A stretch of DNA of 64,000 nucleotides, from assembly GCA_937928385.1 (NCBI GenBank), contig CALEZD010000079.1:296-64295 (forward strand), given 5' to 3'. The stretch comes from an uncultured Bacteroidota bacterium (GTDB lineage Bacteria; Bacteroidota; Bacteroidia; Chitinophagales; Chitinophagaceae). Position numbers and translations under genes: made by a program. This document shows positions 3,996-56,855 of this stretch, in pieces. Positions within the stretch are counted from its first letter, which is position 1. Every line of letters begins with the position of its first letter. Below the pieces are notes generated by a model. It searched no databases. It was not told the origin of the DNA and saw only the letters and a program-made list of their open reading frames with translations.

Positions 3996-4949
3996 ATGAG
4001 CATAACACATATAAATAAAATAATGCCTAAAATTGCGATTATGAAATCTGGCAGGTTGGTTTTGGCGCTTGGAATTTTGATGCTCTCAGCAATTAGTTGT
4101 GGTGAAGACAAAGCTAAAGACAAACCAACAGATACACTCACAAGCGGCACTATAGATATTTCTGTAGACGAAACTTACCGCCACGTTATACAGGAACAAC
4201 TGGAAGTATTTGACAGCAGCTACCCTGATGCTAAAATAAATGTGCAGTACAAGCCGGAGAGCGAATGTATCAAAGATTTTATGGATGGTAAAGTGAGGAT
4301 GATACTGGTGACACGTGACCTGGGTGCTGATGAAAAGGCAGTACTGGAAGGTAAGAAAATAGTGCCCACATCGCTGGATATTGCCAAAGATGCGGTAGCG
4401 GTAGTTGTAAACAATAAGAATGAAGATACCGTCTTCAGCATAACACAATTGAAAGGCATACTTACAGGGCAGTATAGCAAGAAATACAACGTGGTATTTG
4501 ACAACCCCGGTTCCAGCACGTTGAGGTATATGCTCGACTCGCTGATACCGGGCGAAAAGTTGGGCGATAATGTTTATGCGGCAAAAGGCAATGATTCTGT
4601 GATACAGTATGTAGTGGATAACCCCGATGCTATAGGTTTTGTAAGTGTGAGCCATATCAGTGATTATGAAGACCCCGAAGGGCTGGCGTTTATCAGCAGT
4701 GTGAAGGTAGCCACGATATTCAACGACAGCTTAGACAAAGGCTACAAACCTTACCAGGTTTATATAGCTCCGGAATGGTACCCGTTGACGCGCAAGCTGT
4801 ATTATGTACACCGCGATACCTACTCCGGACTCGCGGCGGGTTTTGCCAAGTTCCTGAGAGAGCAGCGCGGGCAGCTGGTGTTCAAACAGGCGAGGCTGTT
4901 CCCTACCAGGGTGAATATCATCTTCAGGGAAGCAGGCATGAACCAATAA
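3996..4949 (+). CDS. PstS-family (PBP-like-2) periplasmic binding lipoprotein
   Basis: 317-aa ORF with lipobox LSAISCG. Motifs GTIDISVDETY, MILVTRDL and DAIGFVSVSHI are typical of phosphate-binding-protein-like fold. The start may be the internal Met (MKSGRL). Confidence 0.7.
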   Translation: MSITHINKIMPKIAIMKSGRLVLALGILMLSAISCGEDKAKDKPTDTLTSGTIDISVDETYRHVIQEQLEVFDSSYPDAKINVQYKPESECIKDFMDGKVRMILVTRDLGADEKAVLEGKKIVPTSLDIAKDAVAVVVNNKNEDTVFSITQLKGILTGQYSKKYNVVFDNPGSSTLRYMLDSLIPGEKLGDNVYAAKGNDSVIQYVVDNPDAIGFVSVSHISDYEDPEGLAFISSVKVATIFNDSLDKGYKPYQVYIAPEWYPLTRKLYYVHRDTYSGLAAGFAKFLREQRGQLVFKQARLFPTRVNIIFREAGMNQ

Positions 4950-52676: not shown

Positions 52677-53213
52677 TTAGCCTTTATGCTCCCACAATAA
52701 CAGGTGTGCGCTGATTTCGTCCGAGGTGTTTTTTTCTTCCCATTCAGCCACATCGTATATTATAAATCTCACTTTTTTATTTATCATCTTCTCAGCCTTG
52801 CTCACCATATCCAACAGGTATTTTTTGTCTATCTCTCCTACAAATGTCAGGTCTATTATACCGGAGTCCCTGCCCAGTGCGTAATCTCCTGTCAGGTACA
52901 CCTTTTCCAGTTTACCCATCCGCTCAATTATAGCATCTATTATCTTATCAACACCTATGTACTTCAGCAATATGCTATGAATATCCCTGAACAGTGGGTG
53001 GCTATCATTTGCTTTATACATTTTTTTATTGCCTTTGTTCTCCGACAACAACATATTCGCTTCCTCAAACCGGTTTAACTCTACGCGTACACTATTAGTG
53101 CTTTCGTCAAACTCCTCGGCCAGTCCACGTAAATAGGCCGTAGTGCCCGGATTGAGGAACAACCGCAACAGCAGTTTTATCCTGGTGCGCGATGATATTA
53201 GTGTTTCCAGCAT
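52677..53213 (-). CDS. Winged-helix (ArsR-like) regulator with C-terminal nucleotidyltransferase-like domain
   Basis: 178-aa ORF. The N-terminus (RTRIKLLLRLFLNPGTTAYLRGLAEEFDESTNSVRVELNRFEEANML) has a wHTH layout. The C-terminal LTGDYALGRDSGIIDLTFVG resembles the minimal NTase G-S/x ... D-x-D motif. Its stop is 5 nt from the upxY start. Confidence 0.55.
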   Translation of the reverse strand: MLETLISSRTRIKLLLRLFLNPGTTAYLRGLAEEFDESTNSVRVELNRFEEANMLLSENKGNKKMYKANDSHPLFRDIHSILLKYIGVDKIIDAIIERMGKLEKVYLTGDYALGRDSGIIDLTFVGEIDKKYLLDMVSKAEKMINKKVRFIIYDVAEWEEKNTSDEISAHLLLWEHKG

Positions 53214-53359: not shown

Positions 53360-54412
53360 TTATAAGGCTAAGGTTTTGATGTCTTCCTGGGCTTTTACGA
53401 AGTCATTGTGCTTACCGATATCCAACCAGTACCCAAGTATCGGGAAGGAAACCAGCTTTTTGCCCTGGCTGATGATGGAATCCATCAGGTCGGTCACATT
53501 GTAAAATTCGTTATGCGGAACTAATGACAACAACTCTTTTTTGATGATATAAATGCCTGCATTTGAATAATAGGTGTAGCAAGGTTTCTCTTTCAATGCG
53601 TTTACAAAGTTTCCGTTGTCCACTTCCATCACTCCATAAGGCACTTCGACACTATACATAGTAGTGGCTACTGCCATATCGGCCCCGGACCTGAGAAATG
53701 CCTGGAAAAAACCATTGAAATCTATATCTGTCAGCAGGTCAGAGTTCATCACCATCACATAGTCGTGCTCCAGTTCTTCTACCATTTTTACCGAACCCAG
53801 GGTACCCAGCGGCTTATCTTCATGTACATAGCTGATAGACACACCCTTATCGCTGCCGTCTTTAAAGTAATCCTGTATCTGTTCGGCCAGGTAGTTAACG
53901 CTCAGGTAAATGTTTTTGATGCCGAATTTCACCAGCCTGTCAATATTATGCTCCAGTATAGGTTTATCGCCTACCTGCAACATGGGCTTGGGGGTATCTG
54001 CTGTCAAAGGCATCAGGCGCTGGCCACGGCCACCGGCCATTATAAATACATCTGCCGGTACTACCGATTGTATTTCAGATAAATTCAGGATTTTAACTAC
54101 TTTCCGGTCCCTGTCTACTACCGGTATCACCATGAAGTTCCTCAACCTCATGTTGTTGAAATCCGTCTTATGTATTTCGTCCTGGTACACAAACAGCGGG
54201 TCGGGCTGAAGGTAATCCATCAGTGAGTTATCGAAGGTCAGCCCTTTGATAAATCCGCGGCGCAGGTCGCCGTCCGTCAGCGAGCCAATGAGCTTTTCCT
54301 GCTCATCTACCACTATCAGGATGGTATTTTTCTTCAGGTCGTTCAGCTTTATCAGCGCGTCCCGCACTGTTTCGTAGCTGTATAAAATGTGTTTCTTGTC
54401 TGTGTTGTACAT
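53360..54412 (-). CDS. CBS-domain sugar-1-phosphate nucleotidyltransferase (PtmE-like)
   Basis: 350-aa ORF with an N-terminal CBS pair (LIGSLTDGDLRRG). The C-terminal NTP-transferase domain has IMAGGRGQRLMPLTADTPKPML. Confidence 0.85.
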   Translation of the reverse strand: MYNTDKKHILYSYETVRDALIKLNDLKKNTILIVVDEQEKLIGSLTDGDLRRGFIKGLTFDNSLMDYLQPDPLFVYQDEIHKTDFNNMRLRNFMVIPVVDRDRKVVKILNLSEIQSVVPADVFIMAGGRGQRLMPLTADTPKPMLQVGDKPILEHNIDRLVKFGIKNIYLSVNYLAEQIQDYFKDGSDKGVSISYVHEDKPLGTLGSVKMVEELEHDYVMVMNSDLLTDIDFNGFFQAFLRSGADMAVATTMYSVEVPYGVMEVDNGNFVNALKEKPCYTYYSNAGIYIIKKELLSLVPHNEFYNVTDLMDSIISQGKKLVSFPILGYWLDIGKHNDFVKAQEDIKTLAL

Positions 54413-54558
54413 AGTGTTTTCTTTTTCTCAGTCCTTATACTGGTTGCAAAGTATAACCGCAGTAGTATATAGCGGAAAAAAGCTAATGGGATAACATCAG
54501 GACAACATGGTGATAACAAACGATTTACATTTCGGAAAGCCCCCGGTTAGTGATGCCA

Positions 54559-54622
54559 TTTAACTCGTTAGTGAATGTTTTTTTATTTGCCTCGTTGAGA
54601 CCGCTATCGCTAAGTTTGTATC
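54559..54622 (+). repeat. Copy 1 of 64-nt direct repeat (137-bp period)
   Basis: TTTAACTCGTTAGTGAATGT...GCCTCGTTGAGACCGCTATCGCTAAGTTTGTATC is near-identical to 54696-54759. Confidence 0.9.
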
Positions 54623-54642
54623 ATTTTGTATCGTTTTGTATC
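54615..54642 (+). repeat. Three 10-bp-phased TTTGTATC iterons
   Basis: TTTGTATC occurs at 54615-22, 54625-32 and 54635-42, exactly one helical turn apart. The TGTATC core recurs at 54754-59 and 54785-90. Confidence 0.85.
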
Positions 54643-54695
54643 GCCACAGGGGGTATCGCAGGATTTTATATTCCTGTTACGATGGAGCAGGCTGT

Positions 54696-54759
54696 TTTAA
54701 CTCGTTAGTGAATGTCTTTTTTATTTGCCTCGTTGAGATCGCTATCGCTAAGTTGTATC
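54696..54759 (+). repeat. Copy 2 of 64-nt direct repeat
   Basis: Same sequence as copy 1 apart from a few substitutions or indels. It is followed by the 16-bp perfect palindrome CCCCGCCGCGGCGGGG (54759-54774) and a second TGTATCGCCACAGGGGTATC (54785-54804; compare 54637-54657). Confidence 0.9.
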
Positions 54760-55641
54760 CCCGCCGCGGCGGGGCAGGCTGTTGTGTATCGCCACAGGGG
54801 TATCAGCCTGAAGTTTTTCTGCCAAGCGGGGAAAAGACTGTACAGCCGGGGGCGGGGCTACGGTATCGCCGTCCTCCGTTTCTGCTTCTTCTTCCTGCGC
54901 ACCCTCGCCGGCATAGTAGCCCGATTCTTCCAACTGCTCATCGGCAAATTTTTTCAGCTCGCGCCATTTCTCGTAATTACGCGTCTGCTCCTCTTCCATC
55001 CTTTTGATATCTTCATTTGTAGGCACATAGTCCAATACCCGCAGCCCCTTTTCTGCATATTCGCGGGCCATGTACGGGTTGTCACGTACTGTTTTTGCGC
55101 GCATGCCGGGGTTGTAGTCCGGGCCATAGCGCATCTCGTTATATTCTTCCAGTTCATTTACAAACTGCCTATAGGATGGGGTTTGGGATTTCGGCTTTTC
55201 GCCAACCGGTTCATCACCAGGCTGCCCCTTGCGGCTGTACCAGTCGTTGGCCAGTTTGGTATCGGCCTCTATAGCGCGTATGATCATAAAGGGCGGCATA
55301 TCAGTTTCCACCATTTCCAGCCTGTCTTTTACCCGGTAGTGTCTTTTTATTTTCACTTCACCCGCTATGATGGCCCGCAGTTGGCGGCGTTTCAGCAGCA
55401 TGGTAGCATACTCCTGCTCTGCCAGCCGCTGTTCTTCTTCGTGGTAGCGGTTAACGGCTTCCTGCTGGGTGGCTGCGAGCCGCTCGCTGATGTATTGCCT
55501 GACATCGGGGTGGTTGGCCAGCCTGCGGGCGGCAATTTTGAGCGCCTCGCCTGTGGCATGGGGGTAGGCAGCTTTGTAGGCTTGGTCTTTATCGCCCGAG
55601 AGGAGGTAATGGTGGGCGAAGAGTTCATGTTCTATTTTCAT
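54748..55641 (-). CDS. Terminase-small-subunit-like (Terminase_2/HTH) protein, orphan
   Basis: The ORF track gives 54748-55740. I prefer Met34 (55641), where MKIEHELFAHHYLLSGDKDQAYKAAYPHATGEALKIAARRLANHPDVRQYISERL matches the TerS N-terminal HTH pattern (F..EYL..gn...AA..AGYs...A...a.rLL.np.V...I). The C-terminal tail is acidic. Confidence 0.5.
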   Translation of the reverse strand: MKIEHELFAHHYLLSGDKDQAYKAAYPHATGEALKIAARRLANHPDVRQYISERLAATQQEAVNRYHEEEQRLAEQEYATMLLKRRQLRAIIAGEVKIKRHYRVKDRLEMVETDMPPFMIIRAIEADTKLANDWYSRKGQPGDEPVGEKPKSQTPSYRQFVNELEEYNEMRYGPDYNPGMRAKTVRDNPYMAREYAEKGLRVLDYVPTNEDIKRMEEEQTRNYEKWRELKKFADEQLEESGYYAGEGAQEEEAETEDGDTVAPPPAVQSFPRLAEKLQADTPVAIHNSLPRRGGDTT

Positions 55642-55805
55642 AGTGATGGCTATTGCGGCCCATCCCGAGGGAAAGGCCGGGTTTTCCGATAATACAAATA
55701 TAGCAATTTTATACGAAATCAGCAATATTTGTGAATTCAAAATTCAAAACTCAAAATTCAAAAGAGGTGTTGTGTGTCCGGCGCGAAAGGCTCCCGGCCC
55801 CTCCA

Positions 55806-55850
55806 CTGGCGCCGGTCTTCCGAAGGGTGACCTGTGTCAGATTAAGTCAC
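55806..55850 (+). repeat. 45-nt REP-like element, copy A
   Basis: CTGGCGCCGGTCTTCCGAAGGGTGACCTGTGTCAGATTAAGTCAC contains a 7-bp stem (GGGTGAC at 55825-31, GTCACCC at 55846-52). It is followed by the palindrome CCGGTCTGAGACCGG (55851-55865). Confidence 0.85.
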
Positions 55851-55912
55851 CCGGTCTGAGACCGGCATTATTTGTTTGTCAGCTTAATAATATATTCGTT
55901 GAAAAATAGCAT

Positions 55913-56464
55913 ATGTCAGGCAGGTACAAAGTCAGGGAGAGTTTCAAGCCTCATTTCGTTACGAGTACAGTAGTGGGTTGGGCGGACGCAATCAGCAGGC
56001 CGGAATACAAAGACATCATACTGGATAGCCTGCGTTATTGCCGTCAGCATAAAAACCTGTTGATACATGCCTGGGTAATTATGAATAACCATATTCACCT
56101 GATAGTAAGTGCAGCCAATGATGCGGACCTACCGGATATTATCCGGGATTTTAAGAAATACACCAGCGGCAGGTTGATTGAAGCCATTTCATCCAACACG
56201 ACTGAAAGCAGGAAGAAATGGTTGCTGAATATGTTTTTGTTTGCAGGGAAAGGTAATCATGATAATGAGCGCTACCAGTTTTGGCAAAAAGATTATCATC
56301 CGATTGAATTGAGCAATGATACTTTATTCCAGCAGAGGTTGGACTATCTGCATGAAAACCCGGTGCGTGCGGGTATAGTGCGTGAGCCGCAACATTATTT
56401 GTATAGCAGCGCTATAGACTACTATGAACAGAAGCCGGGCTTACTTGCCCTGGATATGTTTTAG
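55913..56464 (+). CDS. rayT: REP-associated tyrosine transposase (RayT; IS200-like Y1 transposase)
   Basis: 183-aa ORF with the HUH motif (NHIHLIV), preceded by FVTSTVVGWADAISRPEYKD, and a C-terminal Tyr region (NPVRAGIVREPQHYLYSS). Confidence 0.85.
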   Translation: MSGRYKVRESFKPHFVTSTVVGWADAISRPEYKDIILDSLRYCRQHKNLLIHAWVIMNNHIHLIVSAANDADLPDIIRDFKKYTSGRLIEAISSNTTESRKKWLLNMFLFAGKGNHDNERYQFWQKDYHPIELSNDTLFQQRLDYLHENPVRAGIVREPQHYLYSSAIDYYEQKPGLLALDMF

Positions 56465-56490
56465 TGCTTTCATCTGCTTTTGGTACTCTG

Positions 56491-56512
56491 AATGCCGGTC
56501 AGAGACCGGGTA
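56491..56512 (+). repeat. Right inverted REP arm downstream of rayT
   Basis: AATGCCGGTCAGAGACCGGGTA has the hairpin core CCGGTC-aga-GACCGG (56495-56509). It matches the reverse complement of 55848-55869 at 19 of 21 positions by eye. Confidence 0.8.
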
Positions 56513-56855
56513 AACTAGCAGACACGGATGCCCGCCCGGATGAACCCCGCCAGAATGAACTTGTCGGGCTGGCGTTCGGACGGGCCCTGCTGAACATCCG
56601 CGCCAGTGGGGAAACCATGACAATTAGATTAGCGACCAATTAAATTTTAGCCACACACTGTAATATCTATAATTTGTAAGGTGTACATTTTCAATACCTG
56701 TAATTTTTATGAAAAAAGTAAACGAGAAAAACACCCCCCTTTTGTAAGGATAATGTTTTATAACATTGTTTACAAGTTTGAAGAACCGGTTCAACATTTG
56801 TATGCGTTAGCTGAAAAGCAGAAATAGAGTAGGCATTAACCATAAATTTTAAAAT

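What the first reader, a model, noticed from the sequence alone, without database searches (positions are those of the whole stretch)
54559..54810. 137-bp tandem duplication with helically phased TTTGTATC iterons abutting the TerS-like gene
A 64-nt segment (54559-54622) is repeated almost exactly at 54696-54759. The 20-nt TGTATCGCCACAGGGG(G)TATC is repeated at 54637-57 and 54785-804. Copy 1 carries three TTTGTATC motifs at exact 10-bp spacing (54615, 54625, 54635). In copy 2 that spacer is replaced by a perfect 16-bp palindrome, CCCCGCCGCGGCGGGG (54759-54774). Copy 2 overlaps the last roughly 20 codons of the TerS-like ORF. Phased short direct repeats are the classic signature of cooperative DNA-binding sites such as iterons and pac/cos R-sites bound by small terminases. 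The adjacency to an orphan TerS-like HTH protein suggests a cognate binding array or a relic packaging or att site.
Basis: seen in the sequence. Interest (0 to 1): 0.6.

Follow-up and report, generated by a model that had tools for sequence, protein, structure and literature searches.

The report
Conserved GATACA array behind TerS-like gene
The repeat is real: it is a reshuffled, doubled 3' end of a small-terminase-like chromosomal gene, and its 10-bp-phased GATACA motifs travel with this rare gene family whether or not they are translated, so they are probably a DNA site that the protein itself binds.

Summary
All genes here lie on the minus strand. The repeat is the 3' end of the TerS-like gene (55641->54748) plus what follows it.

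It is a mosaic of modules, not a clean 137-bp duplication:
- "pre", the DTPxAIQN codons;
- 10-bp GATACAAAAY units (R);
- a GC hairpin, which is old coding sequence (SLPRRGGD);
- a 55-nt block, U.

Relatives carry U at two, one or neither site, so U is gained or lost on its own.

The main result is comparative. Across 171 kb (window plus 19 related loci), GATAYA-N4-GATAYA occurs only at the 3' end of these genes, on the gene strand. This holds in homologues of 42-54% identity beside unrelated genes, where the array lies partly or wholly after the stop codon. The array is therefore conserved as DNA.

The gene is under purifying selection (dN/dS about 0.1). Its N-terminal 135 residues are a true Terminase_2 module. 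No family member was found on phage contigs.

Best reading: a cognate binding array for a domesticated small-terminase-like protein. Binding and purpose are untested. An att site, an island edge and plasmid-type iterons are rejected.

The parts
54748..55641 (-). TerS-like gene (297 aa). It has an N-terminal HTH, a long helix and a beta-hairpin (the small-terminase core), then a helical domain and a disordered acidic tail.
   Evidence: ORF. Pfam Terminase_2 scores 22.2 bits, below the 26.1 cut-off. PHROG_51 terS E 4e-6. AF2 model pLDDT 78. Foldseek's top PDB hit is the SF6 small terminase 3zqq, and the top viral hits are nearly all small terminases. Profile relatives pass the Terminase_2 cut-off. 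dN/dS 0.10-0.17.
54785..54804 (-). Codons DTPVAIH of the expressed tail, containing GATACC and one R-like unit, GATACACAAC.
54759..54774 (.). 16-bp GC palindrome ('post' hairpin). Here it is coding (PRRGG within SLPRRGGDTT*).
   Evidence: Unique in the window. Homologous DNA or peptide is found in L015/P0009, L006/P0010, L002/P0004 and the distal copy of L008. L012 has a non-coding hairpin of similar sequence downstream of its array; homology there was judged by eye only.
54697..54752 (-). U2, the proximal copy of the 55/56-nt block U (CTTAGCGATAGCGATCTCAACGAGGCAAATAAAAAAGACATTCACTAACGAGTTAA). It supplies the gene's TAG stop codon.
   Evidence: Absent at this site in metagenome contig X1; present in L015, X4 and X7.
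54658..54696 (-). 38-nt spacer with the hairpin CAGGA-N8-TCCTG (54659-54676). In U-less relatives it encodes the end of the tail (..EQPAPS*).
54637..54657 (-). It is no longer translated.
54613..54642 (-). R array: GATACAAAAC GATACAAAAT GATACAAACT on the gene strand, at exact 10-bp phase. It lies 106-135 nt after the stop codon.
   Evidence: The array is conserved in family members of 41-88% identity, whether coding or not.
54560..54614 (-). U1, the distal copy of block U. On the plus strand, together with the first R unit, it reads TTTG-N21-TAAGTTTG (54586-54618), a perfect Bacteroidetes -33/-7 consensus.
   Evidence: Absent at this site in L015 and X1.
54486..54518 (-). D array: GTTATCACCAT GTTGTCCTGAT GTTATCCCAT at 11-bp phase (GATAACA on the opposite strand). 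It sits just upstream of the promoter-like TTTT../TACTTTG of the CBS-nucleotidyltransferase operon.
   Evidence: Nearly invariant in the close relatives. Also present behind the TerS-like gene of L016, where the next gene is a response regulator.

Best explanation
The repeated stretch is the modular 3' end of a domesticated, chromosomal small-terminase-like gene. This genome carries two versions of that end in tandem.

Shown: structure
- The expressed version is pre - one R unit - GC hairpin - one R unit - U2, and encodes ..AIHNSLPRRGGDTT*.
- Behind it lies a no-longer-translated remnant of the other tail type: pre - three R units - U1. In relatives this type encodes ..AIQNDTERYK..
- Block U is present or absent on its own at each site.

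Shown: conservation
- The R array (consensus GATACAAAAY, 2-4 units, exact 10-bp phase, always on the gene strand) sits at the gene's 3' end throughout the family, independent of reading frame.

Inferred: function
- The R array is the cognate DNA site of the protein's N-terminal HTH.
- Small terminases form rings with the HTH domains on the outside. Sites spaced one helical turn apart would let neighbouring subunits dock along one face of the DNA and wrap it.
- This nucleoprotein complex most likely has a host regulatory role. It could autoregulate the gene or control transcription running into the co-directional downstream genes, here the polysaccharide operon. A second, 11-bp-phased GATAACA array lies next to that operon's promoter.
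- A role in phage packaging is less likely.

Inferred: origin of the duplication
- It arose by recombination or gene conversion between the short GATACA units of different alleles or paralogues. It is a by-product of the repeats, not a functional design.
For: Duplication relative to kin:
- L001 4835-4945 aligns to both window copies.
- The intergenic gap is 335 nt here against 143-150 nt in L001, L002 and L004.

Module states:
- No U at either site in X1, which skips 54561-54616 and 54697-54754.
- Proximal U only in L015.
- Both U copies in the window, X4 and X7.
- The type-A tail occurs with U (P0001) and without it (P0006, P0007).
- U1 carries GCGGTCTC like L001, L002, L004, L008 and L010; U2 carries GCGATCTC like L015. 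U1 is therefore not a fresh copy of U2.

Array specificity:
- GATA[CT]A-N4-GATA[CT]A has 25 hits in 171 kb on both strands. Twenty-four lie within about 130 nt of the 3' end of a TerS-like gene, on the gene strand. The twenty-fifth (L017) is also on the gene strand but 940 nt downstream, inside the next ORF. There are no other hits.

DNA-level conservation:
- L019 (47% identity): array 45-74 nt after the stop codon.
- L016 (54%): array 48-77 nt after the stop codon.
- L012 (42%): the stop codon lies inside the array and the third unit is untranslated.
- The distal arrays of the window and L015 are untranslated.
- By visual count on the arrays, about 25 of 27 array bases match between the window and L002 or L012. 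Synonymous sites of the gene differ at pS 0.42 against L002.
- Unit-specific differences (unit 1 ..AAAAY, unit 2 ..AGAAY) are kept across lineages.

Tie to the gene, not the locus:
- The next gene differs between contexts: lysS, transhydrogenase, response regulator, DUF4290 and others.

Protein:
- TerS fold and transitive Terminase_2 homology.
- The HTH region holds most of the invariant residues.
- dN/dS 0.10-0.17.

Analogy:
- The SPP1/SF6 pac region holds sets of direct repeats next to terS (PMC4737164).
Against: - Binding was not tested.
- For the SF6 small terminase, the isolated DNA-binding domain showed little sequence specificity for its repeats (PMC4737164). Repeats beside a terS gene therefore need not be specific sites.
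- The array is degenerate or absent in some members (L018, L020; only one unit in L006) whose HTH is still conserved.
- In L017 the array lies 940 nt downstream, inside another ORF.
- Simple 10-nt tandem arrays of nearly the same sequence arise in unrelated viral contigs, so slippage alone can make such arrays.
- The D array is limited to the close clade plus L016.
- No expression data exist for this organism: no public run holds this strain.
Confidence: 0.55

Rival explanations
1. Pac-like packaging site. The TerS-like protein binds the R array and recruits the large terminase of an infecting or resident phage. Headful packaging would then start at this chromosomal site. The outcome could be transduction of the adjacent polysaccharide locus, or a decoy that spoils phage packaging.
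For: - True TerS core fold and homology.
- Recognition sites of pac phages lie within or beside terS (SPP1: PMC4737164).
- Satellites carry their own pac mimic or TerS (PMC11417361).
- The long disordered acidic tail could be a TerL-binding tail.
- The downstream genes are always co-directional.
Against: - No terL, portal or capsid gene appears in the gene calls of any locus examined (+/-2.5-4 kb).
- No family member was found in 50,697 phage genomes or in IMG/VR, so no candidate helper with a matching TerS/TerL pair is known.
- The gene has been inherited vertically in one place across a genus-level clade.
- No PADLOC defence model matches it.
Confidence: 0.15
2. The conservation is at the peptide level only. 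A C-terminal motif, IQNDT(E/K)R, is selected, and the DNA periodicity is a side effect of its codons.
For: Many family members end in ..IQNDTE..QNDTKR....IQIDTV or ..QNNTG. In the close relatives the array is translated.
Against: - The arrays are entirely behind the stop codon in L016, L019, the window and L015. The third unit is untranslated in L012.
- A 10-nt unit is read in three different frames, so a peptide motif cannot explain three identical DNA units.
- The tail is predicted to be disordered, with pLDDT below 50.
Confidence: 0.07
3. A neutral, slippage-prone 10-nt minisatellite and local recombination hotspot with no function. The tandem structure is just replication or recombination noise at the end of a gene.
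For: - Unit number varies from 2 to 4.
- The tails are reshuffled in nearly every lineage.
- L012 and L008 have their own downstream duplications.
- Near-identical 10-mer arrays exist in unrelated giant-virus and phage contigs.
Against: - The array persists across homologues whose synonymous sites are saturated, and keeps unit-specific differences.
- There are no background hits to the two-unit pattern in 171 kb.
- It is always on the gene strand at the 3' end.
Confidence: 0.1
4. An RNA-level element, or a promoter module. The array could act in the 3' UTR or operon leader as a single-stranded A/C-rich platform. Alternatively, block U could be a small promoter cassette that fires antisense into the TerS-like gene.
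For: - The plus strand at 54586-54618 is a perfect TTTG-N21-TAnnTTTG.
- This same 32-45 nt part of U recurs with unrelated flanks in contigs from X3 and X6.
- The R array is unpaired in the predicted fold.
Against: - No Rfam match at E up to 5.
- The fold z-score is only -1.7.
- The promoter pattern is expected 1.3 times per window by chance. By visual reading of the aligned sequences, it is perfect only in the window's U1 and in L002/L003.
- No RNA data are available.
Confidence: 0.08
5. An att site or island boundary left by an integrative element.
For: Direct repeats overlap a gene's 3' end, as att sites do. A Y1 (RAYT-like) transposase gene and strain-specific genes lie upstream of the TerS-like gene.
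Against: - Only 38 nt lie between the copies.
- No integrase is present.
- Synteny from the TerS-like gene to the nucleotidyltransferase is unbroken in all relatives.
- The variable DNA lies on the other (5') side of the gene.
Confidence: 0.03

Closest known systems
SPP1/SF6 small terminase G1P (Pfam Terminase_2) with its pac region (boxA/B/C direct repeats)
   Same: - The N-terminal HTH, oligomerisation helices and beta-hairpin match by fold and by transitive profile homology.
- Sets of short direct repeats lie next to the terS gene (PMC4737164).
   Different: - There is no terL or other virion gene.
- The gene is chromosomal and vertically inherited, and twice the usual length, with an extra helical domain and an acidic tail.
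- The array is at the 3' end, not at the promoter or 5' end.
- The units are 10 bp and strictly phased.
- The family is absent from phage collections.
Lambda cosB R sites bound by gpNu1, and the 3' end of T4 gene 16 bound by its own product gp16 (from general knowledge, not tested here)
   Same: Several short sites for the small terminase, on one side of or inside the terminase gene. They assemble a bent nucleoprotein complex.
   Different: Those act with a cos/pac cleavage site and TerL in a phage genome. No such partner is present here.
Phage satellites (SaPI/PICI, PLE) that carry their own TerS or a pac mimic
   Same: A non-phage element holds a terS-type gene and/or the matching recognition sequence (PMC11417361).
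   Different: Satellites are excisable islands with an integrase, replication genes and regulators. This is a single gene embedded among housekeeping or polysaccharide genes, with no mobility genes of its own.
Plasmid iterons
   Same: Directly repeated, phased protein-binding sites next to the gene of the binding protein.
   Different: Iterons are about 17-22 bp, lie in an origin with an AT-rich unwinding element, and go with a Rep initiator. None of this is present.
Operator arrays of phased direct repeats for oligomeric regulators, such as OmpR/PhoB-type 10-11-bp direct repeats (general knowledge)
   Same: Two to four direct repeats one helical turn apart. In the close clade a second, 11-bp-phased array abuts a promoter.
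   Different: The presumed binder has a terminase-type HTH ring architecture, not a response-regulator winged helix. The main array sits behind the gene, not in a promoter.

Membership tests
Small terminase, Terminase_2 / SPP1 G1P type (the protein) | Sequence match to the family model above the curated threshold | tested here: inconclusive
   The window protein scores 22.2 bits against a cut-off of 26.1, and PHROG_51 terS gives E 4e-6. However, the family profile retrieves 134-167-aa proteins at E 1e-34 to 1e-12, and 6 of 10 of these pass the cut-off.
Small terminase, Terminase_2 / SPP1 G1P type (the protein) | N-terminal HTH, then oligomerisation helices and a beta element | tested here: met
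   In the AF2 model residues 1-140 have pLDDT above 89. The Foldseek PDB top hit is 3zqq, the SF6 small terminase, at E 1.7e-3. The BFVD top hits are nearly all small terminases, E from 6e-5.
Small terminase, Terminase_2 / SPP1 G1P type (the protein) | Works with an adjacent large terminase in a virion-assembly module | tested here: not met
   No terL, portal or capsid gene appears in the gene calls around any locus examined (+/-2.5-4 kb). No family member was found on phage genomes or viral contigs.
pac/cos recognition site (the array) | Located in or beside the terS gene | tested here: met
   The array is at or within about 130 nt of the 3' end of the gene in most loci.
pac/cos recognition site (the array) | Bound by TerS and cut by TerL, defining the ends of packaged DNA | not testable with these tools
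   This needs binding assays and sequencing of particle DNA.
Plasmid iterons | 17-22-bp repeats in an origin next to a rep gene, with an AT-rich unwinding region | tested here: not met
   The units are 10 bp. The neighbouring genes are the TerS-like gene and a nucleotidyltransferase.
att site / integrative-element boundary | Direct repeats flank inserted DNA that includes a recombinase, and synteny breaks at the repeat | tested here: not met
   The spacer is only 38 nt. Synteny is unbroken across the repeat in L001, L002, L004, L010 and L015.
Dispersed intergenic repeat (REP/MITE-like) | Many copies at unrelated sites in the genome | tested here: inconclusive
   - R array: no copy elsewhere in the 64-kb window or in the flanks of 19 loci.
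- U: none elsewhere in the window or loci, none in IMG/VR, none in JGI metagenome contigs.
- But 32-45 nt of U occur with unrelated flanks in four contigs from runs X3 and X6.

The most novel reading that the evidence does not exclude
A host-domesticated small terminase with its own conserved recognition array works as a chromosomal packaging-initiation platform or packaging decoy. On phage infection it would recruit the phage's large terminase to the GATACA array. Headful packaging would then run into the co-directional downstream DNA, here a >40-kb surface-polysaccharide locus. This would either spread that locus by transduction or sabotage phage assembly. A second, smaller novelty is also not excluded: the 55-nt block U may be a mobile module that lands next to GATACA units and carries an outward promoter.
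Probability: 0.12. Interest if true: 0.85.

Novelty: new variant of a known kind. Interest (0 to 1): 0.45.

Why it matters
Small terminases are known as phage, satellite or GTA parts. This is a small family of cellular genes: about eight full-length 50%-identity clusters among 1.8 billion representatives, found so far only under Chitinophagales names.

It keeps the terminase DNA-recognition core under purifying selection. It also keeps, right behind the gene, a strictly phased DNA array that survives even where it is not translated.

That pairing gives a ready, testable protein-site couple for two questions. How does a ring of HTH domains read phased sites? What does a terminase subunit do once a cell has captured it?

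For genome annotation, the case shows that the conspicuous "tandem duplication" is only a strain-level reshuffle of the gene's modular tail. It is not an origin, an att site or a prophage scar.

Tried and rejected
Tools unavailable or without result:
- Rfam on 53800-56600 at E up to 5 gave nothing.
- Two scans of JGI metagenome contigs, one for the U core and one for the conserved intergenic block, gave no matches.
- No public run holds this strain; the best word share was 0.14. Read-level checks used relatives' contigs only.

Ideas tested and dropped:
- The palindrome as a REP element of the neighbouring RAYT gene. It is unique in the window and turned out to be coding sequence shared with paralogues.
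- A viral-contig scan for the R array gave 9 hits. None lies beside a family homologue. Most are AT-rich giant-virus minisatellites. One is a cos-type phage, which is an analogy only.
- The U core has no hit in viral contigs.
- PADLOC and NCBIfam have no model for the protein.
- A PDB sequence-profile search gave only a spurious hit at E 0.044.
- The RNA fold of the region is not more stable than shuffled sequence.
- The idea that the gene's own promoter contains an R site was dropped. The TTTGTAT there is the ordinary Bacteroidetes -7 box TAnnTTTG.
Full report
**1. The observation**

- A roughly 64-nt stretch at 54559-54622 recurs at 54696-54759.
- TGTATCGCCACAGGGG(G)TATC recurs at 54637-54657 and 54785-54804.
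- Three exact TTTGTATC lie at 54615, 54625 and 54635.
- CCCCGCCGCGGCGGGG lies at 54759-54774.

The repeat finders agree. The long words occur nowhere else in the 64-kb window, with about 0 matches expected. The palindrome is unique in the window. The offsets differ between parts: 137/138 nt for one and 148 nt for the other.

**2. Orientation and neighbours**

All genes here are on the minus strand. In order they are:
- the TerS-like ORF (55641->54748);
- the repeats;
- a CBS-nucleotidyltransferase (54412->53360);
- a winged-HTH/nucleotidyltransferase-like protein;
- a NusG/UpxY-like protein;
- Wza- and Wzc-like exporters.

Read on the gene strand, the "iterons" are GATACAAAAC GATACAAAAT GATACAAACT. 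Copy 2 is the end of the coding sequence (..DTPVAIHNSLPRRGGDTT*).

**3. Relatives**

Homologues come only from Chitinophagales-type sources; the names given are Taibaiella, Flavipsychrobacter and "Chitinophagales bacterium".

Close relatives (76-88% identity) keep the same order, TerS-like gene then nucleotidyltransferase then the rest of the locus. Their intergenic gap is only 143-150 nt, against 335 nt here. In several of them a legC-like gene lies upstream, as in the window. The gene therefore holds a fixed place inside this polysaccharide locus across the clade. It is not a strain-specific island edge.

L001 positions 4835-4945 align to both window copies. This proves a duplication relative to that relative.

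**4. What the repeated modules are**

In the close relatives, the three GATACA units and the block after them are translated..AIQNDTERYK(L)SDSGLNETN...

The palindrome is not a replacement for iterons. It encodes PRRGG within SLPRRGGD. The same tail is found in:
- P0009/L015 (AIQNSLPRRGGDTT);
- the 58%-identical paralogue P0010/L006 (TIQNSMFRRDGD);
- the very end of P0004 and P0008 (HLPRHCGDT*).

The window thus has a "type-B" tail in frame. Behind it lies the untranslated remnant of a "type-A" tail.

**5. Block U comes and goes**

U is the 55-nt block CTTAGCGATAGCGGTCTCAACGAGGCAAATAAAAAAACATTCACTAACGAGTTAA. It always directly follows a GAYAC(A/C)AA unit.
- A soil-metagenome contig (X1) has the window's layout but lacks U at both sites. 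It skips 54561-54616 and 54697-54754, with 1-2 other letters in their place.
- The Flavipsychrobacter MAG L015 has only the proximal U.
- The window and contigs from two other metagenomes (X4/X5, X7) have both.
- Type-A tails also exist with U (P0001) and without it (P0006, P0007).
- U1 and U2 differ at a site where U2 agrees with L015 and U1 agrees with the type-A relatives. U1 is therefore not a recent copy of U2.
- L008 has its own, different duplication of the same modules.
- Four contigs in runs X3 and X6 carry only 32-45 nt of U with unrelated flanks. Part of U is thus dispersed in relatives' genomes.

**6. The array is conserved as DNA**

I scanned the window plus 19 loci (171 kb, both strands) for GATA[CT]A-N4-GATA[CT]A. 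There were 25 hits and no background hits. Twenty-four lie at the 3' end of TerS-like genes on the gene strand. The twenty-fifth, in L017, is on the gene strand but 940 nt downstream of the gene.

Distant homologues sit beside unrelated genes: lysS, a transhydrogenase, a response regulator, an AlkD-like gene and DUF4290. They still carry the array:
- L012 (42% identity) has GATACAAAAT GATACAGAAT GATACAATTG, with the stop codon inside the array and the third unit untranslated.
- L019 (47%) has three units 45-74 nt after the stop codon.
- L016 (54%) has three units 48-77 nt after the stop codon.
- L014 has two translated units.
- L020 (38%) has a recognisable but decayed version.
- L018 has none.

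Thirty-eight units give the consensus GATACAAAAY.

For comparison, synonymous sites of the gene differ at pS 0.42-0.44 against L002 and L004. By my visual count on the arrays shown, about 25 of 27 array bases match between the window and L002 or L012. A 10-nt unit is read in three frames, so a peptide motif cannot explain the periodicity.

**7. The protein**

- dN/dS is 0.10-0.17 against five relatives, so this is a working gene.
- The AF2 model (pLDDT 78) shows an HTH, a 49-residue helix, a beta-hairpin and further helices. The tail from residue 242 is disordered.
- Foldseek's best PDB match is the SF6 (SPP1-like) small terminase. The best viral matches are almost all small terminases.
- Pfam Terminase_2 is just below threshold for this protein.
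- An exhaustive profile search finds 330 cluster representatives. Only about eight are full length. The rest share the first ~135 residues. Six of ten short ones that I tested pass the Terminase_2 cut-off.
- No family member occurs in 50,697 phage genomes or in IMG/VR.
- No defence-system model matches.

**8. Interpretation**

The phased array and the terminase-type HTH gene are inherited as a pair. The simplest mechanism is that the array is the protein's own binding site. Sites one helical turn apart would suit neighbouring HTH domains of a ring oligomer.

Direct repeats beside terS are known for SPP1/SF6. There, however, the isolated domain bound with little specificity (PMC4737164), so binding here must be tested.

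I favour a host regulatory complex over packaging for two reasons. No phage partner is evident, and the gene is vertically inherited.

The close clade has a second array, 11-bp-phased, which reads GATAACA on the other strand. It sits at roughly -40 to -75 of the downstream operon's promoter-like TTTT/TACTTTG. The same array follows the gene in L016, ahead of a different operon.

The window's duplication is best seen as recombination between the short repeats of two tail types. It is a structural by-product. Its consequences are a shorter tail (297 aa against 313-324) and an array that now lies 106-135 nt behind the stop codon.

**9. Limits**

- No binding, expression or particle data exist.
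- The strain itself is in no public run.
- The copy census of U and of R arrays in the whole genome could not be run.
- The antisense promoter reading of U rests on one consensus match, which chance gives 1.3 times per window.

Noticed in passing
window 54486-54518 (minus strand): A second phased triple, GTTATCACCAT GTTGTCCTGAT GTTATCCCAT (11-bp period), lies in a nearly invariant intergenic block just upstream of the promoter-like TTTT/TACTTTG of the CBS-nucleotidyltransferase operon. The same array follows the TerS-like gene of L016, where the next gene is a response regulator.
   Followed up: partly
L012 2971, L016 2929, L019 2954-2978; window 54494: The motif TTATC[CG][CT]ATT (the last D-array unit) also occurs 1-3 times in the 5' UTR of distant family members. 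Only 3 background hits were found in about 177 kb. It may be a second operator type for the same protein.
   Followed up: partly
window 54586-54618 (+): U1 plus the first R unit reads TTTG-N21-TAAGTTTG, a perfect Bacteroidetes -33/-7 consensus pointing antisense into the TerS-like gene. Exactly this part of U (32-45 nt) recurs with unrelated flanks in contigs from runs X3 and X6.
   Followed up: partly
window 52677-53213 (-): The 178-aa winged-HTH/nucleotidyltransferase-like protein upstream of the NusG/UpxY-like gene matches the candidate defence family PDC-M05A in PADLOC (E 3.5e-24). It is conserved in all relatives' loci.
   Followed up: no
window 55734-55763: Four copies of the 7-bp unit AATTCAA (TTTTGAA on the gene strand) lie upstream of the TerS-like promoter and are conserved in L001. 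Similar TTTTGA(A/C) runs lie downstream of the gene in L020 and L012.
   Followed up: no
L012 4340-4600: Behind its GATACA array, the distant homologue has its own tandem duplication of about 132 bp. Each copy holds the hairpin CCTGCCCCGACACATTCGGGG, which resembles the window's GC hairpin module.
   Followed up: no
L008 2781-3926 and L006 3001-3978 (both from MAG UBA6221): This genome has two paralogues. The one at the polysaccharide locus is frame-broken (two ORF pieces) and has a 190-nt insert between duplicated tail modules. The one elsewhere is intact.
   Followed up: partly
L017 4887-4926: Four phased units (GATACAAAAC GATACAAAAC GTAACAAAAT GATACGGCTG) lie 940 nt downstream of the TerS-like gene, inside the C-terminal part of an AlkD-like (DNA_alkylation/HEAT) ORF. 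They are read there as ..SIQNDTKRNKM..
   Followed up: no
L029 1709-1745: In an unrelated cos-type phage contig (GpA-type large terminase), four ATACAAAACG units at 10-bp phase lie about 670 nt upstream of the likely small-terminase gene. This is an analogy in motif and position only; the proteins are not homologous.
   Followed up: partly
window 55913-56464 (+) and L002 1643-2012, L009 2083-3098: A Y1/RAYT-like transposase gene (Pfam Y1_Tnp) lies divergently upstream of the TerS-like gene. Whole or fragmentary copies sit at the same place in several relatives, so it is an old neighbour.
   Followed up: no
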